From Yuukianura sp. NJ FZ-2021 (taxonomy: Eukaryota), in contig CM102289.1 of the NCBI GenBank assembly GCA_046563655.1, forward strand, positions 9,982,001 through 10,046,000: 64,000 nt of DNA, given 5' to 3'. Below are positions 12,359-52,640 of the stretch, in pieces (position 1 is the stretch's first letter; each line of letters begins with the position of its first letter). Under the pieces are notes generated by a model that saw nothing but the letters and a program-made list of their open reading frames with translations, had not been told where the DNA came from and made no database searches. The translations under genes and the position numbers were made by a program.

Positions 12359-14110
12359 TTAGACTATAGGTAGTTTTCCATTTTCTTTGAAAAGTGGCAA
12401 AATTGCGGAATCTTCAAAAAGTAGTTGAACTTCTTTTTGAAGTTGGTCAGTCAAAAACTGAATTTGGACAGTCGACAAACAAGATTCGTCATAGATGATG
12501 CACAGACGCACTTTGTCTGCGTATGTTACACACAACAGTCCAATCCCTTAAGCAAAACAAAAGTAAAAATAAGACCCTTAGCCTACAAGAGACCCTTTAA
12601 GTATCACTCTTTGTTGTTCTAACCTGCAAAAGTGAGTAGCGGCATCCATCCCGCGATGTCGTTGACCTCGTGACCCCACAGTTTCACTTTCTGCGAAGTC
12701 CAAGGGACGTTGTTGTGGATGATTGGCGTCTTGGCAGCACTTAGCCACAACTGGATCATGAATGCAGGGAACTTCCCGAACACTTGAAACACAAAATAGG
12801 CCACGAGCCCTTGAGGGCTCTGCGTCAACTTGCGCATTTCCTTCTGCGTCGACGCAAGGCGACTGAGTCGATTGTCCTCTGCACGCCCCCTGGCGGTGAA
12901 GTTGACAACAGTGAAGCGATTCTTGGGATGAGTGTCGGGGTAAGGCAAAATTGCTCCCACCAACCCAAAAGACAAATCGCTGATGCTGGATTCCGAGCCA
13001 GCATCAACGTTTGTAGGAAATTGTTGTTGCAGCGTTTTAAGCGCTCCGATTGTAGCGGAGGAGAGGATGGCTGGAATGCTGACATTCGTTTTGTCCTTGA
13101 TGGTTCTGATCATGCTCAGATCAATGGATGGAGCCCAAGTGAACTTTTGTTTTCCCGAGTACTTTGCCATTAAAAATGGACTTTTTATGCGGGATGCTTG
13201 GAAGATGGACTTTGCCAAGGTCGAGATTCCGAAGATGACGCAGGAGAGTTTAAACAGAATTTGTTTCCACTGCGCAACTGCAGAGGGTGACAGAGGATTT
13301 AGAACGTAAGGAAACGGTTGATTGGGGTCACTCATGCAAGTCCCAGACATCAGCAAAGTAGAGCAGCCATCCTAAAATAAAAACTTAATTACCATGCTTC
13401 AAAAATTTTAAATTTTTGAAATGTGTTTTTTTTTAGAAAACCATGTAAGCGTGATGCGATCTGTAGATTCTCGCACTTCTGTCAGGAATTCCTGCGGTAC
13501 CGTTAGCCATCTCCTTATCATAGGCAAATCGAGGCACCAGAATTTCCTCCCACTGTGGACGCTCTTCACTCATGTCTTGTGCAAGAGACGACATGAATTT
13601 CAACACTTCAGATTCAGACATAATTCCATCATTCTGGTCTCCATGGATACTGCGAATATGATCTTCAATTTTAAAATTCTTGCACTCTTCCCAGCAGTAG
13701 TAGCCAAACCTCCTCTTAAAAATGTTTCTCAATTTCTGATAAGGTTGTTGTCCATTTGAATCTGTGTAGTTGATCACTTTGTCATGGTAGTTTTCTCTAA
13801 ACACGTCTAGTGACATGCGTGAATTGTAAATGTAGAGAATGATGATGTTTCTGCTGTTTCCGGGTTTGTGAAACCCCCAGAGGGCGTCTGTCCCGTCAGA
13901 AACAAGAGACAGTTTTGGATTGAGGTCACTCCTGGCCTGGAACTTAAAAATGGCAGTGATCAGAAGCCTTGCAATTGTGTTGCTTAGCCAAAGGACCAAG
14001 ATGAAAGGCCCTATGAGGGTACTTAAAGCCAAGGAAGCTGCAAGTTCAAGGACAGTGGACAGAGTGGTGGTCACCATGGAGAAAAGACGCTTGAACTTTG
14101 AGTTGTCCAT
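12359..14110 (-). CDS. Wax ester synthase/diacylglycerol acyltransferase (WS/DGAT)-family O-acyltransferase, ~534 aa
   Basis: Exons (minus) 14110-13442, 13371-12624, 12546-12359, total 1605 nt in frame. Splicing creates the catalytic HHAYM|DG (HHxxxDG) motif. Also RPQWE (RPLWE-like), NNVPW (SNVPGP-like) and a C-terminal GIGLLCVTYADKVRLCIIYD segment typical of the WS/DGAT C-terminal domain, plus an N-terminal hydrophobic segment. The frame stays open ~34 codons upstream of 14110, so an additional 5' exon is possible. Confidence 0.85.
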
Positions 14111-17100
14111 GACAACGGAAACTGCGGAAGTAGCCTCGACAGGAGTTGTGTTGACACTGAATTGTCCAACGGGTTTTAGGTTAAAATTAGTCTGTTGGAG
14201 GGTTTGTGCGACCTACCGTAACAATTTAGAGGGTGGACATGAATTGAAGTGGTGGAAATGCCTTGGAGCGGAAGCTATTCTTAGCTTTTACTGTTAAGAT
14301 TCTCTCAATAATGAAAACTAATCTTGGCACAAACATCTTCCCAATCTTCCTCCAATCGTAACAAAACAAATCTTCCAATTCTTATTTTTCTCAAATATAA
14401 ATAGAATTTTACAGTATTTTGACGAACCCTACGCACTCCTCAAGGTTTTTCTAAGTTTTCAAGGTTTTCCTAAATTTTCAAGATTTTTTAAATTTTGAAG
14501 GTTTCCGATTAAATTTCCAAATAAAACACGAAAGAGTGGATTGTAGAGTAAAATGATGATGAAATCTAAAATTTGTGAAGTGAAATGCAATGACTAGAGT
14601 GTGTCTAATCGAATGAAGGGCGGATGGCCGGGGGTCATGAGGGGGGCATTCAACTGAGAAATAAAATTGACCATAACTCAAGGTCACCCCGGAAGTGAGC
14701 AGTATCTTCCACACATTAGAGCATGGACTGGACAACTTCCACTAAACACGAAATGCGCTGATCCAAGAGACAAATTGGACACGGCCACAACATAAATAAG
14801 AGGGAACCATCAACTGTCAATTTCAAAAGCAGTTTCTCAATTCCACTTTTTTGGAAATTATGAAAAGTCAAGAGTGGAATGGGGCAGAAGTCGGGAGAAA
14901 GTTTAGAATTGCCACTTTTGTAATATTTCCAAATGGAATTTGCGTGTAAGCGGAAGGGGGAGAGCGGGAGAAAGGTAATTAGAGTGAGGCGAACCGCAGT
15001 GTAATAAAATGAATCTAAATTTATGAATCCTCATAATTGTCTCCTCAAGTGTGGATTAATAACGGAAATGGTCACTCTCCAACCAAAAGTCCCGCTTTCT
15101 CCTCAAAACCATCCTCATAACTCATCCTTAATTTGACAATAATTGACCATTTCAGTCGCTTTCTCTTCACATGTGTGATTTCTCCACTCTTCACAATGCT
15201 TTCTCTAGTCCAAATTTCAATAATGGCATTCTTACTCTCATTTTGCCCAAAGTTCAACTCAAACAACTTCACTCACAGGTCTTTGCTTTCCCAAATCAAA
15301 CCAATCGCTCCCTTCATTTCTCCAACATTTACTCCATTTCACATTTTCTCATTTTTCCATGTAAGAAATTTTTGGAACAAAAAACTTTCACTTTTCCGCT
15401 GCCGGTGAAAGTTAAGTTTGAGATTATTCATAACTTTTTTTTCCAAAAATTGAAAAACCTCGTTTTTTTTATGTTTTGTTCATGATTCATTTGGCATGAG
15501 AAATCGGGAGTTGAATGATTTTGGGCCTAAAAATAGTCCAGTCTTTTGATCTGTCTTGAGGAAATTGGTGTCTGTCAACAGTTTTAGAAGAGAAATGGAT
15601 TGATCCGTGTGCCTAATGCTATGATTATGCCAAATACATTACAGCACAAAACGATCTCTTCCTTCCACCACATTCCACAAACATTCTTTTTAAAAAGTCA
15701 CAAGATAAAGCAGCGGACTTTTGAACAATTTGAGCCAAGTACCAAACTGATGCTCTCCGTCAACCCATTTTTCCAAAGGAGGGAGGAAATGGTTCAATTT
15801 CTCATGTGCTTGCAAGCATCAGCAAATATTCCTCCTCTCAAATTGACCTTCATGGAGGGGGATTTAGAACTCAATGAGGAGGAGGAGGGAGGATTTTTAA
15901 AATTTAACAGAGGCAAACTGGAAATTTAAAAATTGAAAGAGGAAATCATGCCTTTTGGGAGGAAATGTGGATTTCCTGGGTCCTTATTTATTTAGGTCTC
16001 TTAAATTTAATGTTTACTTTTTTAGAGTGAAATCCTCATTATGAAATCCTTAATCCTGCACAATTTCTAAAAAACCGCAGAGGTTGAGTAGGGGTGTGAA
16101 GATGGAATTGTGGCAGATGTGTAGTGGTTGCAAATAGAATTGCTCTTTTTTAATCATTCTCAACCTGTCTGTCAGTCTAAATGGAATTTGGGACCCTTAA
16201 AGTCCCCCTGCCCCTTGGATTTGTTGCAGATCCACTTGGTTCCATTGATGTTGGGTTCAAACTTATTTATTAATACAAATCTTTCAGCAAGTGCACAGAA
16301 AATATAAAAATTGACATTGTTCAAGATGAAATGAGTGGAAAGATAGAATAAAAAATAGTTGGATAAAGTCATCTGAATAGGCACTGGAGCGTAGAAGGAA
16401 GGACAAATCAAAGTCAACGTTTCCTGCTCTTTTTTATTTCGGTTTTTATGAAATCTGAAAAGCTGTTTTCCGGATTTTCAACTTGGATTCACAATAATGG
16501 ATTTCGAAGGGTGACATTTCAACTTCTAAATATTTAAACAGGAATCCAGAACTTGAGTAGGGTGACACTTAATTTCAACCAGCAGCACCAACCCATCTTT
16601 TCCAAAATCAAATTCTTGTTAGAATTTAGAAAACTTTTTTTGTTTAAAATATTTTAGTGACACGAAACCTCTTGACGAAAGAGGCTTTGAAAAAGTAAAA
16701 GTCTTGGGTGCTCCAATTTCTGAAGAATTTGAAACCTTGAAAGTAATCAATCTTCCAGTCTGCGCATGTCTCTTCTAGAATATAATTGCAAATCTTTCAA
16801 TCACTGCTTAAAAGTGTAAGTATGTAAGACAAGAAGCACTTTAAAAAAAGAGGTCAAAGGGTACTTGTAATTTATCATCTCAAACACTGGCACTTCCGTG
16901 AAGTTAAAAATGAAAAAACGCATTTTTTTATGTTTTAAAAAACGGAAGGGTGAAAACTTTTTATTGCTATTTTGGAGACAATTTTCCGGTTGAGGAATTG
17001 AAAAATATAAAATGTGGAAATATATTTTTTGGTGCCTGATGAGATTAGAAATGTGAGACTTTCATTGTTGGTTTGTGGGATTGTTGTGCGTGTGGTTTTT

Positions 17101-21795: not shown

Positions 21796-24540
21796 TGTGC
21801 AAAATGTTGGCTACTGGATCAAAGTGTTTGGTTGGAGGGAGGACATTTGTAAAAAGTGAAAAGTTGGGTTGAATTTGAATGTTATTGCTTATTATTGTTT
21901 GATCTCAAGTTATACATGCAATTATTCCATGTCTAACACCTTTGCGTAATCAATTGTAATGTCTCAGTTGCACCCAGAGGAAGGGGGTGTGTCAGAGTGA
22001 CCACAATTTGGCATGACCCAAACACTAATGTCCATGTCCCGTGTCCATTTGAGGTCATGTCACTTGTGTCGTCACCAAGTGACCACAGTTGTATTTAGTT
22101 CTAGTTTTTAGTGTTAGTTTCCGTCTCAAAGAGCGGAGATCCATTTGAGGGGTTGGTTGGAGAGTAATTGGCACTTTGACTCACAGTTTCCTCCAACACG
22201 AAGGAAAAGAGGAACTCATTTTCCACTTGCAAAACACAAGCCACTTTAATTTGTATTCGCATTACGATTTCAATGTTTGTGCAAAAACATCAACAAATTT
22301 ACAAAATGATATAGAGTTTTTAATATTTTCACAATTTGTGGTTTTCACAATTTGCAACATTAGCGATTTCCTTGATGATAAATTAAGTGTAAAAAGGTGT
22401 CATTTTATGAAATATTCCAAACAGTCTTTTTTTCCAAACATTTTTTTAAAGTGGAAATCTTTATGATTTTGGCACCTTCCAGCGTCCTTGACACCTTTTG
22501 GAAGTGTACCTACATGGAATCGTCATTTGAGTAATCTACTAAATGTACGTGTCTACTCTAAGACATGTCACACCTCCAACTGGTTTGGACAGAGTGACAC
22601 TGGGAGCAAGGTGACCATTAAGTTGTACTACAACTAATCAAAATAAAATCAAAGTCAATACAATCCAATAATTTCCACAAGTATTTTGAAACATGACCTT
22701 CATTTTCCTACCTGAATGTCGCATGATCCCTGCAATTTACTCAAAGATTGTCAATTATAAGTCACTTAAGTATTTGTGTTGATCTCTTGGCCAAATGCTA
22801 AATATGCAAATGATGATCTGCATTTGTGGGTTCCACTTGTGCTATAATTTATAGCTCAAATGCAAAGTGTGGGTAATTAACACCTCTCAAGTGGATCGAG
22901 GAAGGCAGGAGATTTTACTCTCTGGCTGAAACTGACACCTCTTCATTACTTATGCGGGGAAAGTCTTTAAAATTTCGGTTTTCTACAACCAGAAAACTTC
23001 GGAATTTCAAACAACGACTTCCAGACTGTGGAAATTTAAGGAAATGTGTTTTTGAGAGACTTGGTTTTTGAAAAGGAGAAACGTAGAGGAAGAGATGTTT
23101 TCTGGTTTGGGTTTTGATGTTAATGATTGGAGGAAGGAAGAGAGTGAAAGTGTTTGTGTGGAGAAAATAAAGATAAAAGCTTATGACACATGACTCATCC
23201 TCAGATTATCATAAAGTGAAGAAAGAGTAAATATAAAAAAGAGTAGTTTAGCCACATAAATAAGGTGGGTTCCTTCTGTCCTGACTTCAATGACCCACCA
23301 AAACCCACCACATATTCACAGGAAACATCATTCCCAAAACACAGAGGAGAAAGCCACAAGGAGAAAGTAACTCCGAATTCATGGACCAGACACGCTTCCT
23401 TTTTATTCCCACATATTTGGAAGTGCATTTGGAAAGCATGGGATTTTATGGAGAGAAGGAAAGTTCAAGGCCTTTATCATGATAATTCTGTTCCTCAAAT
23501 GAGATCTGTCACTTGGCAGATCCACTGAAAAAGTGAACTTGAACTCCTGACTTTCCGCTGAAAAGTGATCTGTTCACTTGGACTTTTGAAGTCAAAGTGG
23601 GCGTCTTTCTTTTCTGTAAATGAAGTCAAAGGAAGGACATTCTCCGTTTAAACATGGACTTCATTGCTGCAATTTCGGAAGAGAAGTTGAAAAATGGAAT
23701 GGTGTGATTTAGGAATTTGGAGGGAAAGATGGTTTGGTGGACTTTTGTGTTATCTGTTCCTGTTTGTAAGTGATGATGTCATTGGATAGGAACATTAGAA
23801 GTCTCATTTACCTCATGCTCCATCTTCAATAGCCTCATGTTCAAACAGAATCATGGGAAATGACCAACTTGGCATTTGGGATAATGTTTTGACCTTAAAA
23901 AATGGGCTTGGAGAAAGTTCCGTTGAAATCTGTTCTCTTTGTCACTCTAATGTGTCACTTTTAAGGCCACTTTCTTTTTAAAACGCTCCCTTCAAACACA
24001 ACTCAAGTACAAATTGAGTCCAATTGTCATTTACTTTGGAACTGAGCTGGAAAATGGTAGAGCTTTGATGACAGACAAAAACATTAGAAGTGGAGAGAAT
24101 GGACAACATTAGGAATTTCAAAAGACTGCGAAACAACTTTCACCATTACACAACTTTTAATTGACAACTTTATATAAAAAAAAAAGACTTTGTTAACATT
24201 TAATTTTGAGTTATTGGATTATGAAAGTATGTCAAAAGATGGTTATGACAAATTAGGATGATTTTGCAAGTGACCTGTCGACTCAAAACACGATCCTAAA
24301 ATGAGGCCAAACAGGATTTTGTTTGCAGAAGAAAAAAAGAAACCAGTTTATGAATTTCAGCAACACTTTTTCTTCTTTGCTTAATCTTTTCATCCATGAC
24401 TCAGATGCAGTTTAAAGAGCGAACTTTTAACTTTGCGGAATCTGCAGTCCGTGCCCCAAGATTTCAAAATTCAGTTTGTAAGTATTTAATTGTTGGATTA
24501 TTTTTTTAGTGAAACCTTGTGATTGTTTGTTTACAAAGTG

Positions 24541-27500
24541 TCAAGGACGTGTAGCACTGTTTGACTTTAGCGGGTCAAGTGAAGATGCAGAGAAAGGCTT
24601 TGTGTTGCCTACGACAGATTCCGACTGCGGTTTGGATTCTACTGCATTCCACTTTCCAGAAAATTGAGCAGTTGGATTGCTCGAAGGCTTTGCTGGAGTA
24701 TCGGCAACGTCGATTGGATTCTGGATGTCGTTTTGCTGCTCCTGCGCAGTTGCTGGAGCTTCGATGTCGTTTTGCTGCTCCTGCGTAACTACTGGAGTTT
24801 TGTGCCAAGATCCATAAGATGAACGAGCGCCAGTGACAACAGTTCGTTGACTGGAGTTCGGCTGTGCTGGATTTGTGCGACTAGGTTGACCTTTGAGCGT
24901 TTGTTTACTGGGGAAAGCAGAACCCACTTTGTCACTCGTAGGTTTCTGTAAGGGAACAAACTTTATGTTGCAAAATTCAAAGAAAAGTTTGAAATTGGTT
25001 ACTTTGTTTAGTGCTGGAGACTCTGAAGTTTGTTTGGATCGGAAGCACCAGCAGCAGCAGTTGCAGCACAAGAAAACCGGAAGTAGCAGGAAGAAAACAG
25101 CGTTCAGTCCAATTTCTTCATACCTGTAACAATTTGTACAAGTTTTGGCAAATATTGAAAATTGCCAAAGAATCATTGTTTCATAGATGGCGCTCTTTAC
25201 CAACTGAGAGGATTTTGAATGCATCCAAGTCCAAATTTTCCAACTTTTCGGAAAAATCTGCCCAAGATTCCTTTCACCAGGCCTAAAATAACCCAGATTT
25301 GAAGCAATTCAAAATTGGGCGGAAAAGTAAAGTGTGATTCTGATTACCCAAAAGAATTAGGAGAATGGCGACGAGAATGATGAGAGCAAGGAATGTTTTG
25401 GGTGAAAGCAAATCCTGTACTTCGTCCCCCTCCACTTCGAATTCCTCTGGATTTGGAAATCCAGCAGAAATGATTTCATCCGGAGACATTGGAATGCATG
25501 CGTGTTTCACTTGGTCACCACAACCACATTTGCAATTCAAAGCACAGATGCAAGTGTCGCCAGGAGAGAAAACGACAGTGCGAAATGCTACAACTTCGTT
25601 GTACTCATTGATCAATCCCACTTAACAAAAAAAATTATTTAAAAAAAAAGGTTTCAGAGGTTCCATGCCATTGTGTCAATTGAATTGTATCAACTGCCAT
25701 TGCATCAACTGAATTGTGTCAATTTGAATTGTATCAACGCTCAATTGTGTCAACGGCTACTTGTATCAACCAACGTAACCTAACCTAACCTAAGCTAAAT
25801 TAAGCATTACAGTCGTTGATACAATTAGTCGTTGATACAATTGGCCAGTTGATACAATTCAAATTGACACAATTCAGTTGATGCAATGGCAGTTGATACA
25901 ATTCAATTGATACAATGGCGTGCTACCGTTTCAGATTTAGAAAGTTGATTATGTATTGGTGTTGTTCCACCTGAGCAAGTGGCGTGGTGCTTCAATTGAA
26001 CTTTTGGTGGGAAATGGATGTCGAGTTTAAAAGTTTCCATCCGAACTGCATCGATGAGCTTCTGTTCTGACTTTTGGAGTGGCAACTGCTGAGTGCAACT
26101 GAGCACATGCACACTGAACAATGCAGCCACATACTCAGTATTTGCTACCTGCATATTCAAACAGAATTTAACAAAAATGTTCACTTCAAAATTTCAAAAA
26201 GTAGACCAAACCTCAACAATTAGCTTCCCTCCAGTACTCGTGCAGCCAGAAACAACTGAAACTAGCTGAGCGTTATATCTGGGAATCCAAATTTAAAAAA
26301 AATCAAACTTCAGTTTTTTTTTTTAAATTTTCCAATGTTAAACAATTTCTGAATGCTGACCCTGGTCGCATGACCTCCATTTGATCAGCCGATTGCTGAA
26401 TGTCAATGTACGCAGCCGCTTCACCTTCATGTTCCAGAACAAAGTACATTTTGTTTTGAATTCGCTTGAACGGCGCTGGTTCATGAACTTTCCCAAAGTT
26501 TTTGAGGCGATAATGAACAGTTCCACTCTGCAAAACACTAAATTTCTAAAACAGTTTTAATTTTAAGTGTTGAAAAGACAGAATTTTGAAAATACGGCCT
26601 TGTTGTCAATGTCCCAGAGGTCGAATGGTTGGTTTCTGAGACAAGTGCCCTCTGTCTCTCGACATGGCGATGGCTGACTGTTGAAAACTTCGGAGATGAC
26701 CCCTACTTGACTGCACTTTTGACCAACTAACTTCTTCGGAACAACCAACACTGAATTTCCAATGTCATTCCTTAACTGAACAGGAAGTTGATGCTGATTG
26801 GCGAGTGGTTTGGATTGGAGGTGATCCAGCTCGTGATAAATTTCGTGGTGTTTAGTATTTTCTCCTTTGGTTCCCACATTTGAAACTGATCCGTAAAACA
26901 GCGTTGGAATGAGCAGAAAGTTTTGTTTGGAATCCAACTTATCCGCAGTTTGATTCAAATTGGACACTGCTTTTCTGTAGCTGATGCTTAAGTTTTCACC
27001 ATCCTCAAAATTAGTCACAGTCAAAGAATCGATTCTAAAAATCCAACCAAATGTAATCATATTTGAAATTAACTATCTTTGAAATTGAAATTTTGAAAAG
27101 TTTACTTTGCAGTGATGCCTTTTTCTCCAGACGGTTTCCATAAAATGGTTCCGTCTTCCTGTTCCACGCTTTCGTAAACTTCAACGTAAACTTGGTGAAA
27201 TATTTCAGGCGGCCCAATTTGAAACACCGCGTACCTAAATTCAAATTTTTTAAAATAATTTTTAGAAACAGAACGGAAACTTTGATTGGAAATTTTACCA
27301 GTAGTTACTGCGGCGAAAGCAATGCTTAGAATAAAACTGGTCATTTTTTGTCATGTTTTTGCATTCGTGGCCTCCTCTAAGCTGACCTTTGACACTGTCC
27401 TCACAGGAACAGCAGAAACCCTAACAAAAACATCAATTCAGCTAAAATTTAAACCAAAATTGAGCAAACTTACATTGTTGAGTGTTGGATCTTTAAGATT

Positions 27501-28220
27501 AGTGTTGTCGTCGTATCCACAAATGTTGCCACTGCACTTTTCATGACTTTTGGTTCCACTGTACTTGGTAATTTCTTCTTTAGCTTTTGCGTTTACAGTC
27601 TGCAAACAAAATTAATCTTGAGAAGTTGTGCTAACTTGACCTACTAAATATCATGTTTTGTTTCTGTTTGTGACCTGGAGATACTTGAGAGGGTACGTGG
27701 CCAGCACTGGACCTTCTTGGATCTTGACTGCAATTGGATTGCCCAGACGAACTGCCTTACCAGAACGCTCATCCAGCATGTGATCAATCTTAATCAAAGT
27801 CCCAATGTCATCAACGTCCACCTAAACAATTACAACTTTGAGCAAATTTAATTTTTGGAATTATTAAATTCCAAATCCTAGTACATTTCCGTTGTGGATG
27901 AGTTTGATGGTGATGATGGCCTGACTGTGGCATCTTGTCATGCGCGTGATGTTGAGATCCACATCATTTTCTACCTCCATGTCCAGTGCTGAGTTGGGGT
28001 CATGTGGTCCAGGTTTAATCGGAAGGTCAAAGGAGGTCAACGGAGGAGGTTTCCAGTTAACTACGCGAAAATCATCATCTTCTGAGTCAGAAGGATTTTG
28101 ACACCGAATTATGGCAGACTCAACCTCAATTGTTTCTCTTCCGCTTACAGTCGAACCGATTCCCACCAATAATAAAAGTAGAAGAAAGTCCATCATTTTT
28201 CTTGGATTCATCACATTCAT
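24541..28220 (-). CDS. HAP2: HAP2/GCS1 class II gamete fusion protein (fusexin), ~863 aa, 13 coding exons
   Basis: Exons (minus): 28220-27885, 27821-27675, 27599-27474, 27420-27299, 27234-27106, 27034-26596, 26527-26361, 26278-26212, 26148-25971, 25620-25348, 25282-25201, 25123-25003, 24945-24541. All introns are GT-AG; sum 2592 nt with no internal stop. Motifs: signal peptide (MMDFLLLLLLVGIGSTVSG), PVLATYPLKYLQTVNAKAKEE, GFCCSC, LRGGHEC, HCFRRSNYWYAVFQIGPP, the HAP2-GCS1 motif CSQVGVISEVFNSQPSPCRETEGTCLRNQPFDLWDID, a TM helix FLALIILVAILLILLGL, a Cys cluster and a low-complexity tail. Alternative starts at 28211, 28196 and 28193. Confidence 0.93.
24724..24785. repeat. 39-bp-period duplication in the HAP2 last exon (QEQQNDI x2)
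   Basis: GATGTCGTTTTGCTGCTCCTGCG occurs at 24724-24746 and 24763-24785. Confidence 0.85.
25659..25927. mobile_element. Non-autonomous foldback-type MITE (probably Mutator/MULE-related) in HAP2 intron 9
   Basis: ~110-bp imperfect terminal inverted repeats (GG...CC ends), each built from 7 sub-repeats of ATTGTATCAAC-like 11-mers. Central TAACCTAACCTAACCTAA at 25776-25793. Exact 8-bp flanking direct repeat GTTTCAGA at 25651-25658 and 25928-25935. Superfamily assignment is inference. Confidence 0.9.
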
Positions 28221-28360: not shown

Positions 28361-31300
28361 AAGTTGAAAGTAAAAATTAAGTTTTGTCATTTGATCTCAT
28401 TTTTGTAGTGAAGAGGAAAGAAAGTTGGTATTCCCCAGGGGAAAGCAAACTTTGTAAATTGCTAAGAAGTGAATGTTTGATTTTGATGTCAACGGAGAGC
28501 TTAATTCATGTGGAGTCATGTACTTGTAGGAGAAGTGAGGAATGCGGGAGTGTTTAGCGTAGAATTGCATAATAGCCTAATAAATCACGGTTCCTGGGAA
28601 TTCCTTATGGATTTTAAAAGTGTGAGGGAGCAGAGGTGTCTGGGTAATAAATGACAGACGGAGAGTGATGCATTCGGTGGGTGGGGCAACTAAAGTCCCT
28701 GGGAACTAACCTCCGCAAAATCATTCTTTTCGTGGTGCCAACGGAAATTGACAGGAAAGTGATTTCGGAGACTTCACTTTTCACAGATTAACCATTCTCC
28801 AAAGTTTCAAAGTTGACAAGGAAAAACCGACTATGTCCCATGTACTTCACAACTTCCCTCAAATTCTCAACTTTCACAACACTTTTCCGTGGGAAAGCGT
28901 CTCCACAAAACTCAATTTTGTGCAACAGCCTTAAGATTTTGAAAATTATGTTCTTAACTACGCCACTAGAAAAATTATTATTTATTACATATAATTTAAA
29001 TTATGAAATCATAGGTCATTCTCTAGCTTGAGTTGATTTGTGAACCACTGCGGAGGTGACTAATCCTGTGAGTGTATTGATTAAAGGCCCCTCAAGTAAA
29101 AAGAGACTTCGTGTTGTGTTCCAATTGTTGTGGCTAATGACAACAATGGATTTTAGGAGAAGATTAATTAAGAGAAATCAGTGGGGAGAGTCACCTCCAC
29201 CTGGTTGAGTAGAAATCACGCAGAGAGCCCTTAAGGGCCCCTCCCTTGAGACAGGAAGTGGAGTGGAGGCTAATCCTCGGTTAATGACACACAGGTGCCT
29301 TCAAGTGTCAATGTTTGCCCTCATCTCCAAAAACTAACATTTTCTGAGGTCACACTTTTTTAAAAGTTGCCCCTCTCAAAAACTGGAGCAGCAGGAAAGC
29401 ACAAAAGTTCAAAAAATCAATTCACAGGAAAAGGGGTGAAATGCATCCAAAATTTATTAAAACCTATTAACTTTTGGCTGTGTTTTTCAAGTCAGGTTTT
29501 TTGATTAACTTTTAATTAATTAATTCTTCAGTTTGATAATTTAGTTAGGCTGTAATTATTATGTTTAATCTTCACAAATAATTGCAGTGTAAATTATGAA
29601 CAGGTTATCGTAACCTTGCGTATAAGTAATAATTCTTGGTTCTCATCAAAAAAATTTAAGCAGTAAAAAGAGTTGGAATGACGCAAGGCTTCTTGTGCTT
29701 AATCCTCACTTAAGAAACCGAAATCAATTTGAAAGACGAAAATCTTTAGAGAGAGTGGACAAAAGAAAGTTATGTAAATGAAGTTTGGGTGTACAGGGGA
29801 TTGAGCTTTTTTAAAAAGTTAAATTTAAAAATGTGTTTTCAACAAAAGCGTTTTGTGATTGAGTACACATGAATCCACCCACCAACCTCCAGTTCCTTTC
29901 TTAAGGAACTTCGGTGACCTCTTGAACCCGCCATTTCTTTGGAAGCGTAAAGACTTCTTTTGTGCACAACTGAATAGAGGGACTTTGTATTTCTTATGCT
30001 CCACCGATCACACTCAATACAAATACAATATCTCCACATTCTAATTCTACCCCTTCACAAATCTAAAAAATACAATTCTGTTCAAATCCATTTTTATACT
30101 TTCTTTTTCAATACAACTTCTTTGTGGGAAGAGAGGGAGTTTACAACTGAAATAAAATTGTAGGCAGTTAATGACTTGGAATAAACAAGGTCATTCCAAC
30201 ATCAATTCCAATTTTAAATGCTAAACACTAAAACTTAAAATGTTAAATTTCGACACCTTTCCGTTTTTGCCCAGCTTTTAATTATGGTTATTTAATTTTG
30301 TAATTAAGGAGCATATGTGGTTGAAAGTGTCAAAACAAGAGTCGGGGGATTAACAATTTTAATCTCCAGACTTAAAATAACACAAAAATCATCCCCCAGT
30401 TGAGTTTAAGCTGTGCTCCCCACAATAGAAAAAAGAGAAAGTGAAACTTTTTGTGAGCTCATCTCTATTATTAGAGTAGTTTTGTCATTTTAGCACGCAA
30501 TGGAGTCCAGCAGAGAAGGAATGGCCAGGAAGAGATGATGGAAGTTTTTGCACCTGTAGACACAGACTTAGGATGCCCTGCACAGTGACCTCTGAGGATC
30601 CAAGGGGGGTCATGTCACGCAAAGACTTCTAATGACTTGCACAAATACACGAAGACTTTAGCTTCTTTTCAAAAACATGTTTCTGGAGGGGGCACAGTGT
30701 GCGGATACTAATCCTGTCTGGACACAATCCGTGGACAAAGTTTATTATTTTTATTAGTTGAATTATTTAAGGAGGGGATGACACTTCCCGTGGTCACAGG
30801 TGCCCAGATTCACAGTTCAAACCAAACCTCTTCATTGAATTGAGCCATTAGCTCCAATTCTTCATTCCACCGTCACCGCCGCCGCGGTGCTTCCGTGCAA
30901 AAACTCTTGTTCATAAGTTAGAATTATTTCAAAATAGAAAGATTTGTCAATTTAGTCACAAATTCTGCTGTTTGAGACACAACAGAAATCACTTTGTGAA
31001 ATGAAAGTCCGAGGTCAGCAGTGGAACAACTACTTGGACAAAAAATGACGGCGGCGCTAAAGTTTTTAAAGGAATAGTTTTTTTTTAAATTGAAAAAAAG
31101 TCATTTTTTTTTTCAAAGTCCCATCATCAGGTGAAAATTTTATATAATTTTATTAGAGGTCATGCTGAATTGGGTGTTAATTGACTTTGGTTCTCAGAAT
31201 TTTGTTGTGCGTCACTCTTAGCGGAGTATCTTTTTAATTCAGCTCCACTTCAAATTGAATTCCGTTCCTAGAAAAAGACATTTATTTCCCTAGTAGCCTT

Positions 31301-34346: not shown

Positions 34347-35624
34347 ATGAGAGTCACGGTAAACAACTTTTTACTTTCCTTAGCCCTCGATTTGTAGCTC
34401 AAATGTTTTTGTGTTTTCTGAAATATTTTTGTGTGTTTTCTGAAATGTCTTTGTGTTTTAGTTGGTGTTGTTGGTGACCCTTGGTGTGCTGGGGATGACC
34501 TCTGGTACATTCTTCAGTTTGTTTAGAAGACGCGGACGCGGGGGTGGGTGGGGTGAGTCCAGCGGGTGGAGACAGGGCCCACCTCCAGGCTGGAGACCAC
34601 AGCAGAGTTCTGGATGGAGTTCGTCTGGAAACTCAGGTATGCGTCTTACAAAAATTTAAAATTTAAAATTTAGAAACGGAAAGTGAAAGTTCTTGAGCGT
34701 AGGTGGAGCATGGCCCAGCAGTTCTTCTGGATCAGGATGGCAGTCTGGAAATAGTGGCTCATCAGGTATTCGTAATTGAATAAAGATGAAGTTTAGTTTG
34801 TTGATTTGAAAATTTGCGTAGGATCTGAGTCAAGCGGATGGAGGCCAGGTCCACCACCAGGCTGGAACGGTGGATCCTCATCTTCCGGACGTGGATGGGG
34901 CAGTTCGTCTGGTGGCTCTTCATCTTCTGCCTGGCCATCCAGTTCATCTTCCGGATGGCAAAGTTCTGGCTCATCTTCAGGATCCTCTTATGCCGCTGCT
35001 TGGCCTTCCAGCTCATCTTCTGGATGGCAAAGCACTGGATCTTCCTCCTCAGCAGCATGGCCATCATCCTCATCTTCTGGACGTGGATGGTCCAGTTCGT
35101 CCAGTGGCTCCTCAGCTTCCGCTTGGCCATCATCTGGGTCATCTTCCGGTTGGCAAAATACTGGCTCATCCTCAGGATCATCTTATGCCGCTGCTTGGCC
35201 TTCCAGCTCAGCATCTTCAGGATGGCAAACTAGTGGATCCTCTTCCGGAGCCTCATTAGGTTCAGGCTGGCAATCAGCATCTTCATCATCGTCCTACGCG
35301 CCATCATCTTCTTCTTCAGGATGGGAAAATGCTGGTTACTCACCGTCAGCCTCCAACTCAGCATCTTCTTCATCAGGATGGGAAAACACTGGCTCATCCT
35401 ACGCGGCACCTTCATCTTCATCGTCAGGCTGGCAAAGCGCTGGATCTTCATCTTCATACTCCCCAGCATCTTCTTCCTCAGGATGGGAAAATGCTGGATC
35501 TTCGTCCTACTCCCCAGCAGCATCTTCATCCTCAGGATGGGAAAATGCTGGATCCTCTTCCGGATCTTCCTCTTCCTCTGCGTGGCCAACTACTTCGTCC
35601 AACGGCGGAGGGTGGCAGGCATAA
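34347..35624 (+). CDS. Secreted Ser/Gly-rich repeat protein with periodic Trp (350 aa); probable extracellular structural (cuticle/eggshell/glue-type) protein
   Basis: Exons 34347-34358, 34462-34636, 34703-34765, 34822-35624, total 1053 nt in frame. Signal peptide MRVTLVLLVTLGVLGMTSG, then TFFSLFRRRGRGGGW, two ESSGWRxGPPPGW units, AWPSSSSSGWQ units and SSSSGWENAG units. AATAAA at 35773-35778. Confidence 0.9.
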
Positions 35625-47600: not shown

Positions 47601-50136
47601 CTGGACGAGTGACAGGAGTGACTTTTAATCATTTGAGCCTCCAGGGCTCCAACAGTAGCTGACAAGGGAGCCTCGTGGTCACACTTAATTTGAGCAAGAG
47701 GTGTCGATGACCTCAACTGAGATGAGCACAACCAAAAGTGATTTTCATTAAAGTTGCAAGATTTGCAACTTCCAAGATGATCCTGTTAAAAAGCAGAACA
47801 ATGGCAGTTGGACGTGTTGCTTGCGTGTCTGTTAAAAGTTGAGCGTCGGTTGTGCCTGGGGGTGTCGTTTTACAACTTTTTGTTGTGGTGGTTGTAGTAA
47901 AATGGTCGGGTCCAAGAGAAGAGACGTAGTAAGGGGTGTCTGGAGGAGACTTAAGGGTCCCCTCTTGTTTCTTAAGGATGGGGTTGTTCTTGAGTCCATC
48001 GTAAAGTGCGTGGCAACAGCTGAGCCTGGGAGTTTCCTAAAAATAAAAACCTGTTCCTAGGCTGCAATAAATCATCGCAGCCTCTTCGTAAGTCCAAAGT
48101 CTCCTCCAAGAAGTAGCGTTTAAAAAAAAGTGAGTTTTTTTTCTTCTGGGTGGAAGACCCTGAACTTGGAGAGAGCTCAAAGCTGCTCCTTGTAGCAAAA
48201 TAAATAAATCTGGAAAAAAGTGGAGCCAAGGGCCCTTTTTTGTCCCTCTGCTGATCCAAAAGTGATAAGTTCAAGTGCTTTTCAACTTTCCTAAAAGCAC
48301 AAAAACTTGATCATACGAGTAGGGATGAGGACGTGGTGTACTGTGATCCCAGGGTCACGCAGCCTTCCACAAAAGGTCAAACACAGCTTGCTTCCTTAAG
48401 ACTTCTTTTTTTTTCCAGTTTTCAATTTCAACAAAAAATTTCAAGTCCAAAATTGTCCAGCAACTAAAAATTTATAATTTCAAAATTGTAATTTTGCTAC
48501 TTTTTATGAAAACTACGCAAAAACACGAAAGGGCTTCCTGAAAATTAATCCAGTCCTAAAATTGTCCAGTTTTTGTGCCACTTTGTGCATAATGTTTATA
48601 ACTTCCGTCTTAACTTTTAAAAAAAGAACACAAAGGAGAGATTTGTTTTGGTGCATGATTAAATAAGAAGATGGGGGATGGAGAGACACTTTTAAATCCA
48701 AATGTAAACACACTTGCTTCTGCATGTTTGTCCTCAGAGATGACATGGAACACAAAAAAAAGTCGTGAGGATGAGGGGAGATTTGTGTTGTAAAAAGCAA
48801 CCTGTGCTCTCAAATTGAAATTGAAGTTGGGCAGGAGAATAATCAAATTTGGAAAACGTCGCTTCCTTAAACTTTGACTAAAAACAGGGATCCCTTGGCG
48901 TTTCGTATTGAGAAATTGGTCATAATGGGCTGTTGTTCGTGTGGCCATTAAGTCCAAGGTCCCTTGGAAAAATACAGAGGCCCTTAAAGGCCTCTCCCCA
49001 CCTGTTCCTCGTCTTGGATCTTTACGTTTGCAGACAGTGGATTCGTGTTGACGAATCAGCTGGAGGGATTTTCCAACCAGGCTTTCGTTTTTTTGTGGCT
49101 CCAAGATTCAAAAGGAACCAAACAATAGACGCTCTGCAAAGAAGATGAAAAAATCAAAGCTCTAAAGTTCATTATTCCCACTTTTTTTAGTGCAGAAGAG
49201 CTTAAGAGTTGGAGACTTGTTGGCTAGCTCAACGCCCACGCAATCCCTTCAAGGCCTCGCTCCGTCTTGATTTCAGGGTCCCCCATTTTGTTTAAACTGC
49301 ACACTGCTCACACACTTCCCTTCAAGTACCCATCTTCTGGAATAGACATGACAGGTTGCCTGTCAGGATTTAAACCAGAGACCCTTAAAGGGTCTGCCAA
49401 GGGTCTCCCTTCCCTTTTGAGGGTGAGTGAGCATAACCCCATTTTATCACTCATCCTTTGTTTCTAATTTCTAAACCATCTCTGTCACTAATCCCCACAT
49501 CCATACTCTACGGCACTCATGTGCCAAATTTAAAATTTAAAAATCTATTTCACGAAGTTTTGCAAATCTTTTAAAAAAAAAGTTGAAATGCGAGTAGGGG
49601 GTAATGTGTTCCAATGCATAATTTGAAATTTACAACAAATGAGTCATTAGGAATTAGAAAAATAGATTGGCGAGGAGCCAAATGACACAAGATGCTACCA
49701 ACCACCACTCTCAAGATTAATCTTCTTTTGACATTTGACAACACTTCAACTTCCAACTACGCATCTTCCGTTTTTTCTTTGAGGAAGCAATTCCCACATC
49801 TTGTCCAAATTTTTAAACAAGGGGAGCCATGTAGCATCCTATTTTTAACTTCAAGGAACATCTTCTTCGGCTTCTTAATTACTCAATTTTGACTTTCGGA
49901 ATTTTTAAAGTTGAAAATTGTGATGAGAGATCGGAGCTAGGAAAAACAGAATTTATGTCGGAAAGGTTTTTCGGCTTTGAAGTTGATGAACTTCTGAACA
50001 AATTAATTGAATTAATGTAAGCATTTGAACAAAAACAGGGCAACAGTTAATTTGATATTGTGAAGTTAATTGAAAATAAACCGGTTGTAAACCGCCCATA
50101 ATGATAATAGCGAAGCAATAGGCCCCCCGAAGGGGG

Positions 50137-50261
50137 TTTGTTCCCCCCACTTTCCCGCTCCCCCCCCCCGGGGGAGTGGGGATGTGTTTCCCCCACTTTC
50201 CCGCCCCCCCCCCCGGGGAGTAGGAGTGTGTTCCCCCACTCTCCCGCCCCCCCCAGGGGGT
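50137..50261. repeat. Three ~43-bp C-tract-rich tandem units (G-rich on the minus strand)
   Basis: Repeated GTTCCCCCACTTTCCCGC(C)nGGGG(AGT) units. Confidence 0.8.
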
Positions 50262-50263
50262 GT

Positions 50264-50448
50264 TGACAGGTGAGACGTGACAGCTGAGGCGTGACAGGTG
50301 ACAGGTGAGACGTGACAGCTGAGGCGTGACAGGTGACAGGTGAGACGTGACAGCTGAGGCGTGACAGGTGACAGGTGACACCCGGCAACTGAGAGGTGAC
50401 AGGTGACAGGTGACACCCGGCAACTGAGAGGTGACAGGTGACACCCGG
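50264..50448. repeat. 35-bp minisatellite built from 7-bp subunits, inside the HINE-like element
   Basis: 3 x (TGACAGG TGAGACG TGACAGC TGAGGCG TGACAGG), then 2 x (TGACAGG TGACACC CGGCAAC TGAGAGG TGACAGG), then a partial unit. Confidence 0.92.
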
Positions 50449-50868
50449 TGGACACAGTGCATGAGTGTGTGAAGTGTATCTGTCAACTGCGTAATAGATT
50501 TTTTGCTAAGCAGAGAATCAAGTCCCATGCCAATTGCCTTTCCAGTCTCACAAGCAGAGTTTTTTGTACCCACACTTGCATTACAAATGACCTTTGAAAT
50601 CAATTTTGACCCGGAAGGAGGTGACCTAGGGTCACACATTAAACACAAAAGTTGTTCCACTCGATGAGATGAACAACTTTTGTAGAGGTCATTTTCCCGG
50701 TTACCGGGGATAAAACCGGTTGACCTTGACCTTTGACCCGGAAGGAGTTGACACCCGGGGGTCATATTCAATAGTGACCTAGTCCGGGTCATGACATGGT
50801 CACTGGTGAAAACCGGAATCAAATCGGACCAGTAGTTTCTGAGATAATTAATCTGGACAGACAGACAG

Positions 50869-50899
<31 letters not shown>

Positions 50900-50946
50900 A
50901 ACCACTTTTATCATAATAGCTTCGCTATTATAATAACTTTTGAGTT

Positions 50947-52640
50947 TTAGTAGTAGACGTCTGAAGTGGCTCTGGGGATGAAGCCCCCCTCTGCTCTGAC
51001 CACTCTGTTGGGATTCCTGCGTTTAGTTTTGCAGTTCCAGTCTGTTGCCTGGGAACGCAGAGATTCGCAGTGGTAGTCTTTGGAGAAGGCGGATTTGATG
51101 AAATTGGCAAGGAGGTCAGGGATTTCTGGGGAAGTGCAAATGTAGGAGTGACCAAACTCCTTTGGAAAGTGCTTGAAGTAAATCGGAGCAGCAGTCACTG
51201 GACGCCTCCGAACTCCCGCTTTGTACAACTAAAACGAAAGTTGAAATAAAATCCAACTAAATTTAAAAATGTAAATGTTTTTTGAACCTTGACTCCTAGG
51301 AAGTAGGGCACTACAAGGTCATCTGCTGTGTGCATAATGAGGATGGGAATGTCAATGTTGGCGATGTGAAGGTCACTGTCGAAGGCCAAGTCACTTTTGC
51401 GCAGAGGTCGAATGGCCAAGTGCTCCAGACCTTCAGGAATCCAGCGATAGATCTTGGCAATATTTCAATTTTTTAAGTTTTACGTTTTGAATTCCCTATA
51501 CTTTCTTTTTTGGTAATTTTTTTTTGTGAAATCTTACAACTGAGAGCCAGTGGTACTTGAATTGGTCCCTGAGGTTGCTGAAGGGAGACTCAAGAAGAAG
51601 GCCAGTGGGCCCTTCGTTGGCTAAACAAAGCCTTGACACCATGTGACACCCAATACTAACGAGAAAACAGAATTTTTAAAATCCTTAAAATTTTTGCGAA
51701 TTTGTAGCAATGTTTACCCCGTGCCGAGCGAGTGCCCCCAGACGATGAGGGGGGTGGTGGCCCTTGAAGGGCCCAGTTTGTTGTTGATCCAAGTGTAGAG
51801 ACAAGTGGAGTCCGTGACAACGCCTGTTTCGAAGGGGGCTACCCTTGTGGAGTCTGCGTATCCACGGTAATCCAGTGTAAGTACATGGTAGTCCAGACTC
51901 TGCAGAAGTTTGTACAGAGTTTTGCGATGCCAAAGGGCCCTTGAGGCCGAAGTCCCATGAAGGTACAGGATGATGGGCCTGCCAGAAGTGCACAACGAAG
52001 TCTCCCAGTACGAACCATCACGACCAGCGGATCCACCAACTTCAGATTCAGGCAGTACATGCCTGCAATTTAACATTTAGGAACATTTTGAATTTATTTT
52101 CCAAATTTTGAAAAAATTTGAAATTTTGGAAAGTTACCAGACGCCAATTTGAATGCCTGGTTCTGAGGTGAGGTAGAAGTTTCTGGTGCCCTTGAGCCCT
52201 TGGCTCTCGGGATCATCAAAGTTGACCCAGAAGGGACGCAGTACTAAAAACCAGACACAAATTTAGAATTGGCGGGAGAGTTGAAATTCAGTGCTCTAAT
52301 TTAGCACTTAAATTGACTTAATTTTTGTATTGTAAAGCTACTTTGTAACTTTACCAAATGGGAGGAAGATTAGATGTCTGCGAATGTAAGTGTTTGAATA
52401 GAAGAGGATGGGAGGCACAATGTACAGAATGAAGGTTGACCCAATGGCCCAGGTCACAGTGAAGTGAAGCTGCTTACGCAAACTACAAATTCAACTTTCA
52501 ACATTTATCTCTCTTTTGCACACTTTGCACAACAATCCATTCACAAAATTTAATGTCTAGACTTACTATTCATAGTAGGCGAAGAACAGAGTCCCGATTG
52601 CACCAGTCGTGACGCCGATCAGAAAATTTCGGAGGCCCAT
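50947..52640 (-). CDS. ABHD12: ABHD12-like alpha/beta hydrolase (lysophosphatidylserine/monoacylglycerol lipase family), ~405 aa, 7 exons
   Basis: Exons (minus): 52640-52567, 52482-52355, 52243-52138, 52062-51718, 51655-51538, 51452-51288, 51228-50947; sum 1218 nt. Motifs: N-terminal TM, GLKGTRNFYL...IGVWHVLP, PIILYLHG, DYRGYADS, WGHSLGTG (nucleophile Ser), LESPF, ILIMHTADDLVVP (Asp), FGHSYI (His). Confidence 0.92.

What the first reader, a model, noticed from the sequence alone, without database searches (positions are those of the whole stretch)
24541..28220. Complete, intact HAP2/GCS1 gamete fusogen gene fragmented across 13 short exons
Seen: the ORF track shows only disconnected pieces, but GT-AG splicing joins them into one stop-free ~863-aa type I membrane protein with the HAP2 cysteine framework (GFCCSC, RGGHEC, HCF..WYAVFQIGPP, C.QVGV...F..Q...C....GTCL.NQ). 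Established: HAP2/GCS1 is the ancestral class II (virus-like) gamete fusogen of plants and many protists; it is patchily retained in animals, lost in vertebrates, and poorly characterised functionally in arthropods. Inference: this animal retains a candidate HAP2-based sperm-egg fusion system. It would be especially informative if the source lineage is parthenogenetic.
Basis: partly seen in the sequence, partly recalled or inferred. Interest (0 to 1): 0.8.

Follow-up and report, generated by a model that had tools for sequence, protein, structure and literature searches.

The report
Intact arthropod HAP2 sperm-egg fusogen gene
This is a complete, well-conserved copy of HAP2, the ancient virus-like protein that fuses gametes, in an unidentified arthropod; such genes are already known in arthropods, so it is a correct but fairly ordinary find.

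Summary
On the minus strand, 13 exons (28220 to 24541) joined by 12 GT-AG introns give a stop-free 2,592-nt frame for an 863-aa protein, and all four quoted motifs are present.

Evidence that it is HAP2:
- Exon 6 alone passes Pfam's HAP2-GCS1 cut-off.
- The spliced protein aligns end to end with springtail HAPLESS 2-B (E 2.5e-86).
- It scores 493 bits against an arthropod HAP2 profile built without it.
- That profile matches solved HAP2 class II structures (E 5e-39 to 1e-27).
- The functionally critical Glu/Arg pair, seven tip cysteines and signature Gln are all present.

A metagenome contig holds an ortholog with the same 13 exons and 57% identity. dN is about 0.27 with saturated dS, so the gene is under purifying selection.

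Not established: expression, splice junctions by RNA, and the source species. The parthenogenesis angle therefore cannot be assessed. Sperm-egg fusion is inferred from homology only.

HAP2 in arthropods has been in print since 2008-2009 (PMC2766252). This is a new member of a known kind and of modest interest.

One small oddity: a conserved second hydrophobic, cysteine-rich segment follows the transmembrane helix.

The parts
27885..28220 (-). Exon 1 (codons 1-112). It includes a signal-peptide-like N-terminus (hydrophobic core at residues 9-27) and the first two ectodomain cysteines (C40, C97).
   Evidence: It is 66% identical to L001 3604-3933.
27675..27821 (-). Exon 2 (codons 113-161).
   Evidence: Weak collinear Pfam HAP2-GCS1 hit at profile positions 26-71. 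The junctions are conserved in L001.
27474..27599 (-). Exon 3 (codons 162-203). It holds E169, the equivalent of Chlamydomonas E126 in strand b, plus C183 and C188.
   Evidence: Residue roles are from PMC5332557.
27299..27420 (-). Exon 4 (codons 204-243 plus 2 nt). It encodes the domain II tip / cd-loop region: GFCCSC, R218 (= R185), C223 (= C190) and C237.
27106..27234 (-). Exon 5 (codons 244-286), carrying WYAVFQIGPP.
26596..27034 (-). Exon 6 (codons 287-433). It carries the PF10699 signature (C394...F404..Q407...C411......C418 L.NQP, about 26629-26715) and a lineage-specific insertion of about 29 aa shared only with the L001 protein.
   Evidence: Pfam 46.4 bits against a cut-off of 27.4. 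Representative search. PDB hits. Alignment.
26361..26527 (-). Exon 7 (codons 434-488 plus 2 nt).
26212..26278 (-). Exon 8 (codons 489-511).
25971..26148 (-). Exon 9 (codons 512-570 plus 1 nt). It probably encodes part of domain III.
25621..25970 (-). Intron 9 (350 nt). It is enlarged by a palindromic foldback insertion at 25659-25927 (80-nt arms, 95% complementary). The orthologous intron in L001 is 73 nt.
25348..25620 (-). Exon 10 (codons 571-661 plus 1 nt). It holds the Cys-rich stem (C594, C596, C600, C602, C604, C612) and most of the transmembrane helix (residues 646-664, about 25396-25348, continuing at 25282-25275).
25201..25282 (-). Exon 11 (codons 662-688): the end of the transmembrane helix and a basic juxtamembrane stretch.
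25003..25123 (-). Exon 12 (codons 689-729): the second hydrophobic segment with a cysteine cluster (VFFLLLPVFLCCNCCCWCF, residues 698-716, about 25042-25107).
   Evidence: The segment is present in 7 of 11 arthropod sequences examined.
24541..24945 (-). Exon 13 (codons 730-863 plus TGA): a poorly conserved, low-complexity C-terminal tail.
   Evidence: The tail is 32% identical to L001, against 64% for the ectodomain.
24485..24490 (-). ATTAAA, a possible polyadenylation signal about 50 nt after the stop codon.
   Evidence: Sequence shown. This is an inference only.

Best explanation
This is the intact, selectively maintained HAP2/GCS1 ortholog of an arthropod. By its gene tree the source is nearer to the springtail-type HAP2s than to those of beetles and wasps.

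The 863-aa product has a signal peptide and a cysteine-rich, beta-rich ectodomain of the class II fusogen type (domains I-III). It also has a transmembrane helix and a cytoplasmic region that starts with a hydrophobic poly-cysteine segment.

The inferred mechanism follows the solved and tested HAP2s. The protein would sit on the male gamete and insert the short loops at the domain II tip into the egg membrane; these loops are held in shape by the E169-R218 salt bridge and the PF10699 'ij' framework. It would then trimerise and fold back into a hairpin that pulls the two membranes together.

Shown here: gene structure, family membership, conservation of the key residues, and purifying selection. 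Inferred: the fold of this very protein, its expression in sperm, and its fusogenic activity.
For: - Gene model: 13 exons, 12 GT-AG introns, 863 codons, no stop. Exon GC is 44.8% and intron GC 29.2%, and 11 of 12 introns are required by the frame.
- Pfam on 11 open pieces: 4 hit HAP2-GCS1 in collinear order (profile 26-71, 115-157, 156-189, 216-307). Exon 6 scores 46.4 bits against the 27.4 cut-off.
- An exhaustive phmmer search with exon 6 found 14 proteins at E <= 1e-3. I scanned 12 of the 14 and all 12 carry PF10699 above the cut-off. The named ones are Orchesella cincta HAPLESS 2-B, Photinus 'hapless 2-like', and Vespa and firefly proteins.
- The spliced protein against P0005 gives E 2.5e-86 over residues 9-708 vs 17-677. 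Against profile A3 it scores 492.8 bits over residues 28-684, with 0 of 20 shuffles scoring.
- Homolog-guided tblastn finds the same exon blocks and no second copy in the window.
- The ortholog on contig L001 has 13 exons and 899 aa. All 12 introns lie at homologous sites, 11 of 12 in the same phase. Identity is 481 of 840 aligned residues. All 21 ectodomain cysteines are conserved.
- Ectodomain dN is 0.27 with dS saturated; LWL85 dN/dS is about 0.13.
- There is no consistent rate acceleration in the window's lineage. With 5 outgroups the unique-change counts (window vs L001) are 28 vs 28, 56 vs 67, 50 vs 47, 50 vs 31 and 27 vs 43.
- Profile A3 against the PDB: 5ow4 5e-39, 6dbs 1.1e-33, 5mf1 6.8e-33, 7s0k 8.4e-31, 5ow3 1.1e-27.
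- E169, R218, C223 and F404/Q407 align with Chlamydomonas E126, R185, C190 and F376/Q379. Their roles are described in PMC5332557.
- The nine invariant tip residues of PMC6089408 (7 Cys, Glu, Arg) are all present.
- An AlphaFold2 model of the closest named relative, P0005 (ectodomain pLDDT mostly 65-90), has HAP2 crystal structures as its top 8 PDB matches (E 7e-23 to 4e-19). Next come Fsx1, EFF-1 and viral class II proteins.
Against: - There is no expression evidence of any kind and no RNA support for any junction.
- No arthropod HAP2 has been tested functionally. Steele & Dana (PMC2766252) call the arthropod genes 'divergent' and 'HAP2/GCS1-related' and found no ESTs for them.
- Seven of the 11 open pieces gave no HAP2 hit in Pfam when scanned alone: exons 1, 3, 7, 8, 9 and 10, and the piece holding exons 11-13. 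One of these gave only a sub-threshold Metallothio_5 hit.
- This protein itself was not folded. The fold rests on homology and on a model of a relative that is 30% identical, with mean pLDDT 57 and pTM 0.45 overall.
- The putative fusion loops are short and not very hydrophobic, and one carries an N-glycosylation sequon (N225-M-T).
- A second hydrophobic segment after the transmembrane helix does not fit a simple single-pass topology.
- dS is saturated, so dN/dS is only an approximate long-term average. It says little about current constraint in this species.
Confidence: 0.75

Rival explanations
1. This is a genuine, conserved HAP2 ortholog whose role in this arthropod lineage is not sperm-egg membrane fusion. 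It could act in somatic or germline-cyst cell fusion, in adhesion only, or on the female side.
For: - Arthropod HAP2s are divergent and patchily retained, with repeated losses and no functional or expression data (PMC2766252). No functional study turned up.
- The tip loops are short, polar and carry a sequon.
- A conserved extra hydrophobic/Cys segment sets these proteins apart from the tested single-pass HAP2s.
Against: - The residues that are essential for fusion in Chlamydomonas (the R185 equivalent, its Glu partner and the PF10699 framework) are all kept.
- In every organism tested, from algae to Hydra, HAP2 is tied to gametes (PMC2766252 and PMC5332557, passages read).
- T. cruzi HAP2, the best PDB match of the arthropod profile, also has short loops.
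Confidence: 0.15
2. The gene is a relic no longer in use, intact by recency, for example in a lineage that has recently given up fertilisation.
For: The species is unknown and expression is untested, so recent loss of function cannot be excluded. dS saturation means the selection estimate is an average over a long history.
Against: - There are 863 codons without a stop or frameshift, and all 12 splice sites are canonical.
- All 21 ectodomain cysteines and the key residues are kept.
- Relative-rate tests show no consistent excess of changes on the window's branch. In 3 of 5 outgroups the counts are balanced; one leans each way.
Confidence: 0.07
3. The gene is not a host gamete gene. It could be an endogenous viral class II glycoprotein, or DNA from a protist contaminant or parasite.
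For: HAP2 shares its fold with viral class II proteins, and protist parasites of arthropods carry HAP2.
Against: - The closest relatives are arthropod proteins, not protist or viral ones.
- The gene has 12 short spliceosomal introns conserved with an ortholog.
- Base composition matches the surrounding window.
- Viral proteins rank well below HAP2 in the fold search.
Confidence: 0.03

Closest known systems
Arthropod HAP2/GCS1-related genes: Orchesella cincta 'HAPLESS 2-B' (ODN05384.1), Photinus pyralis 'hapless 2-like', and the Apis, Tribolium and Pediculus genes of Liu et al. 2008 and Steele & Dana 2009 (PMC2766252)
   Same: They share the same Pfam family. The match runs end to end from signal peptide to membrane anchor (E 2.5e-86 to Orchesella). 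The conserved cysteine framework is the same. Most also have the second hydrophobic Cys-rich segment after the transmembrane helix.
   Different: Identity to the named proteins is only 25-30%. The window's protein forms its own well-supported clade with two unnamed metagenome proteins (L001 and P0002). It has an insertion of about 29 aa in exon 6 that only the L001 protein shares. The Apis, Tribolium and Pediculus sequences were not compared here.
Structurally and functionally characterised HAP2 of Chlamydomonas (5MF1, 6DBS, 6E18), Arabidopsis (5OW3), Trypanosoma cruzi (5OW4) and Cyanidioschyzon (7S0K)
   Same: The PF10699 signature is shared, as are the Glu-Arg salt-bridge residues, the seven tip cysteines and the overall domain order. 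The arthropod profile matches these chains at E 5e-39 to 1e-27.
   Different: Sequence identity is very low: exon 6 alone reaches only E 0.013-0.095 against them. The cd-loop region is short (8 residues from C209 to R218, 13 from C223 to C237), unlike the roughly 40-residue algal loop. It is more like the short loops of T. cruzi HAP2. The extra hydrophobic segment is not described for these proteins in the passages I read.
Other fusexins and viral class II fusion proteins (C. elegans EFF-1, archaeal Fsx1, bunyavirus Gc, alphavirus E1)
   Same: They have the same three-domain beta-rich fold, as judged from the model of the springtail relative (E 6.5e-12 to 1e-9).
   Different: There is no detectable sequence similarity and they lack the PF10699 signature. 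The window's gene is clearly on the HAP2 branch.

Membership tests
HAP2/GCS1 (Pfam PF10699) | Match to the Pfam HAP2-GCS1 model above its gathering score | tested here: met
   Exon 6 alone scores 46.4 bits against the 27.4 cut-off. Exons 2, 4 and 5 give sub-threshold hits in collinear order. The whole spliced protein could not be handed to the Pfam tool.
HAP2/GCS1 (Pfam PF10699) | Full-length collinear similarity to recognised family members | tested here: met
   blastp to Orchesella HAPLESS 2-B gives E 2.5e-86 over residues 9-708. hmmsearch with an independent arthropod profile gives 492.8 bits over residues 28-684.
HAP2/GCS1 (Pfam PF10699) | PF10699 signature of the 'ij loop' (C..VG...F..Q...C......CL..Q), including the strictly conserved Gln (Chlamydomonas Q379) | tested here: met
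   C394, G398, F404, Q407, C411, C418, L419, N421 and Q422 are present. They are invariant in alignment A1 and aligned to HAP2 chains. The role of the signature is from PMC5332557.
HAP2/GCS1 (Pfam PF10699) | Nine invariant residues of the domain II tip: seven cysteines, Glu in strand b, and Arg in the cd connection (PMC6089408) | tested here: met
   C183, C188, C206, C207, C209, C223, C237, E169 and R218 are present. Their register against Chlamydomonas E126/R185/C190 was checked through the profile alignment.
HAP2/GCS1 (Pfam PF10699) | Sixteen conserved ectodomain cysteines with a signature distribution (PMC5332557) | tested here: inconclusive
   There are 21 ectodomain cysteines, all conserved in the L001 ortholog. 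Ten were mapped to conserved HAP2 positions. I did not map the other six of the sixteen one by one.
HAP2/GCS1 (Pfam PF10699) | Signal peptide plus a C-terminal transmembrane anchor (type I topology) | tested here: met
   Hydropathy shows an N-terminal hydrophobic core at residues 9-27 and a transmembrane helix at 646-664 (Kyte-Doolittle 3.27). An additional hydrophobic segment lies at 698-716. No dedicated signal-peptide or topology predictor was available.
HAP2/GCS1 (Pfam PF10699) | Three-domain class II fusion-protein fold | not testable with these tools
   A spliced protein is not accepted by the folding tool. There is indirect support: the family profile matches solved HAP2 chains, and the AF2 model of the relative P0005 hits HAP2 structures first.
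HAP2/GCS1 (Pfam PF10699) | Expression in (male) gametes | not testable with these tools
   No RNA holder was listed, so nothing can be said either way.
HAP2/GCS1 (Pfam PF10699) | Membrane-fusion activity and requirement for fertilisation | not testable with these tools
   This needs bench work.

The most novel reading that the evidence does not exclude
Many arthropod HAP2s, this one included, may not be simple single-pass type I fusogens. They would be anchored by a conserved two-part membrane module: a transmembrane helix, a short basic linker, and then a second hydrophobic segment studded with cysteines (CCNCCCWC here). The second segment would either re-enter the membrane or be held on it by multiple palmitoylation. 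This module would tune where and when fusion fires. A further open possibility, untestable here because the species is unknown, is that the source is a parthenogenetic lineage that keeps HAP2 under selection, which would point to hidden sex.
Probability: 0.2. Interest if true: 0.5.

Novelty: new member of a known kind. Interest (0 to 1): 0.3.

Why it matters
HAP2 is the only broadly conserved gamete fusogen known, and animals are where its story is least clear. It is lost in vertebrates and in many insects, and it is untested in every arthropod that keeps it. A clean, complete gene model with a conserved ortholog is a usable reagent for a knock-down, an antibody or a fusion assay. It also adds a data point on which arthropod lineages kept the ancestral fusogen. 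By itself it changes no concept: presence in arthropods has been in print since 2008-2009, and nothing here shows function. It would gain value if the source proved to be an asexual or cyclically parthenogenetic species, or a tractable one.

Tried and rejected
- **Word-indexed protein searches.** With exon 6 (longer proteins) nothing was found. Two attempts to place the species through neighbouring genes gave one unnamed 39% hit and nothing. The species stays unidentified.
- **Sequencing runs.** No RNA holder was listed. With that search spent, no reads could be laid on the gene.
- **Whole genome.** None is held for this window.
- **Earlier notes of this scan.** There are none for this genome or for look-alike stretches. 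The 8 shown of 12 notes on HAP2 elsewhere concern bacteria, archaea, a red alga and Naegleria, and did not bear on this gene.
- **Rfam.** No hit in the window.
- **Alignment A2.** It mixed single-exon fragments with full-length proteins, aligned poorly, and was dropped in favour of A3.
- **dS estimators.** NG86 and YN00 failed or returned -1 because synonymous sites are saturated. Only LWL85 gave values, and one YN00 value for exon 1.
- **Naive splice scoring.** My first scoring favoured long introns and was replaced by shortest-compatible-intron listing.
- **Microsynteny with L001.** There is only one weak extra match, 23 aa at E 4e-5. This is too little to claim.
- **Folding this protein.** The spliced sequence is not letter-for-letter in the DNA, so it cannot be given to the folding tool. 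A relative was folded instead.
Full report
**What is there.** I listed, for each pair of neighbouring pieces, all frame-compatible GT..AG pairs and took the shortest introns with plausible signals. This gives 13 exons between 28220 and 24541. Together they make 2,592 nt, encoding 863 codons and a TGA with no internal stop.

All 12 introns begin with GT and end with AG. Eleven are 53-82 nt and one is 350 nt. Exons are 44.8% GC and introns 29.2%. Eleven of the 12 introns would bring an in-frame stop if retained.

Intron 12 (57 nt) is the exception, because its retention would keep the frame open. It rests on its splice signals, its composition and a homologous intron in a relative.

**What it is.** Eleven open pieces were scanned separately against Pfam.
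- Four hit HAP2-GCS1 (PF10699) in collinear order.
- Exon 6 alone scores 46.4 bits against a cut-off of 27.4.
- One of the other seven gave a sub-threshold Metallothio_5 hit, and six gave nothing.

An exhaustive HMMER search of 1.84 billion representatives with exon 6 found 14 proteins at E <= 1e-3. I scanned 12 of them, leaving out two 83-residue fragments. All 12 carry PF10699 above the cut-off. The named ones are Orchesella cincta HAPLESS 2-B, Photinus pyralis 'hapless 2-like', and firefly and hornet proteins.

Inside scripts, the spliced protein aligns with the springtail protein from residue 9 to 708 (E 2.5e-86). It also aligns collinearly with eight further relatives, with no gaps piling up at exon junctions. 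A profile built from ten database relatives without the window's protein scores it at 492.8 bits over residues 28-684, while 0 of 20 shuffles scored. tblastn with five relatives finds the same exon blocks and no second copy in the window.

**Link to the class II fold and to function.** The arthropod profile matches the solved HAP2 ectodomains:
- T. cruzi 5ow4, E 5e-39
- Chlamydomonas 6dbs, 6e18 and 5mf1, E about 1e-33
- Cyanidioschyzon 7s0k, E 8e-31
- Arabidopsis 5ow3, E 1e-27

Exon 6 alone reaches only E 0.013-0.095 against them, though 5 of the 7 chains listed are HAP2.

Reading the alignments in register, the window's E169, R218, C223, F404 and Q407 correspond to Chlamydomonas E126, R185, C190, F376 and Q379. 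Fedry et al. 2017 (PMC5332557, passages read) showed several things about these residues. A positive charge at position 185 is essential for fusion and for membrane insertion. R185 forms a salt bridge to the strictly conserved E126. Q379 and the PF10699 disulfide framework underpin the fusion loops.

Fedry et al. 2018 (PMC6089408, passages read) anchor their alignment of 38 HAP2s on nine invariant tip residues: seven cysteines, the Glu and the Arg. All nine are present here (C183, C188, C206, C207, C209, C223, C237, E169, R218).

The spliced protein itself cannot be given to the folding tool, so I folded the closest named relative with its alignment. Its ectodomain pLDDT is mostly 65-90, the whole-chain mean is 57 and pTM is 0.45. 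Its top eight PDB matches are HAP2 crystal structures (E 7e-23 to 4e-19). These are followed by archaeal Fsx1, EFF-1 and viral class II glycoproteins. The fold of the window's protein is therefore inferred, not shown.

**An ortholog and selection.** One scan of metagenome contigs returned a 10,884-nt contig, L001. Its gene can be modelled with the same 13 exons, giving 899 aa with no stop. Intron 10 there is GC-AG.
- All 12 introns sit at homologous sites, within 0-2 residues in the pairwise alignment.
- Eleven of the 12 are in the same phase.
- Identity is 481 of 840 aligned residues: 64% in the ectodomain and 32% in the tail.
- All 21 ectodomain cysteines are conserved.

Non-synonymous divergence in the ectodomain is 0.27. 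Synonymous sites are saturated: NG86 fails and LWL85 gives dS about 2, so dN/dS is roughly 0.13 as a long-term average.

Tajima-type relative-rate counts with five outgroups show no consistent excess of changes on the window's branch. The counts are 28 vs 28, 56 vs 67 and 50 vs 47 for three outgroups. One is nominally faster (50 vs 31, p 0.035) and one nominally slower (27 vs 43, p 0.056). The gene has been kept by selection. Current use in this species is not proven.

**Whose gene.** No whole genome is held, no sequencing run was listed, and searches with neighbouring genes did not place the species. In a 12-sequence tree with a midpoint root, the window's protein groups with L001 (support 100/99) and an unnamed partial protein (98/98). 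That clade is sister to the one holding the springtail Orchesella, apart from beetles and a hornet. An arthropod outside the holometabolous insects is the most I can say. Whether it is parthenogenetic cannot be judged.

**Known or new.** HAP2-related genes in arthropods were reported for Apis and Tribolium in 2008 and for Pediculus in 2009. The distribution was patchy and no expression data were available (PMC2766252, passages read). Three full-text searches listed no functional study of an arthropod HAP2, judging by titles and abstracts only:
- 3 papers
- 11 papers
- 19 papers, of which 15 were listed, most using 'hap2' for a haplotype

This is therefore a new member of a known kind.

**Details that stand out.**
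- The cd-loop region is short, with 8 residues between C209 and R218 and 13 between C223 and C237. It is only mildly hydrophobic and carries a sequon (N225-M-T). The ortholog has N-G-T at the matching place.
- After the transmembrane helix (646-664) comes a basic linker and a second hydrophobic segment with a cysteine cluster (698-716). A second segment of this kind is seen in 7 of 11 arthropod sequences examined. A review notes potentially palmitoylated cysteines in HAP2 tails of other species (PMC8777248, passages read).
- Intron 9 is enlarged by a 269-nt foldback element that the ortholog lacks.

Noticed in passing
window 25659-25927 (inside intron 9 of the HAP2 gene): A palindromic foldback insertion with 80-nt arms that are 95% complementary, built from short internal repeats. 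Its centre holds three AACCT units (about 25777-25791), the complement of the TTAGG-type telomere unit (the motif name is recalled). The orthologous intron in L001 is only 73 nt, so the insertion is lineage-specific. No other copy was found in the window.
   Followed up: partly
window 25042-25107 (-), residues 698-716; also L001 model residues 686-710: A second hydrophobic segment with a cysteine cluster (CCNCCCWC) lies about 30 residues after the transmembrane helix. A second segment of this kind is present in 7 of 11 arthropod HAP2 sequences examined. It does not fit a plain single-pass topology.
   Followed up: partly
window about 27346-27354 (-), residues 225-227; L001 model 'NGT' in the matching loop: An N-glycosylation sequon sits in the loop between C223 and C237, at the presumed membrane-facing tip. 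A sequon is also present in the L001 ortholog and in the springtail protein (NLS), but not in four other relatives.
   Followed up: no
L001 6259-6325: Intron 10 of the ortholog is a GC-AG intron (GCAAGA...CAG) at exactly the site and phase of the window's GT-AG intron 10.
   Followed up: yes
window 12622-14212 (-): Two long open pieces of a WS/DGAT-type acyltransferase gene (Pfam WS_DGAT_C, 25.7 bits against a cut-off of 20.7). The best database relative is only 39% identical.
   Followed up: partly
window 34797-35621 (+): A 275-codon open frame made almost wholly of Ser/Gly-rich repeats (…SSSSGW(Q/E)(S/N)(A/T)GSS…), in a stretch of raised GC (45%). No Pfam hit.
   Followed up: no
window 49956-50924 (-): A 323-codon open frame in the GC-richest part of the window (48%). 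It has repeated 'VTCHLS/RLSCHVSPVT'-like units and overlapping open frames on the same strand. It looks like a tandem-repeat region rather than a gene.
   Followed up: no
window 51717-52076 (-): An exon-sized open piece with an alpha/beta-hydrolase fold match (Abhydrolase_1, 36.8 bits against a cut-off of 25.8).
   Followed up: no
window 30489-30557 (+) and L001 397-621 (-): A weak 23-residue match (52% identity, E 4e-5) upstream of HAP2 in both sequences, in the same relative orientation. It could be a remnant of shared gene order.
   Followed up: no
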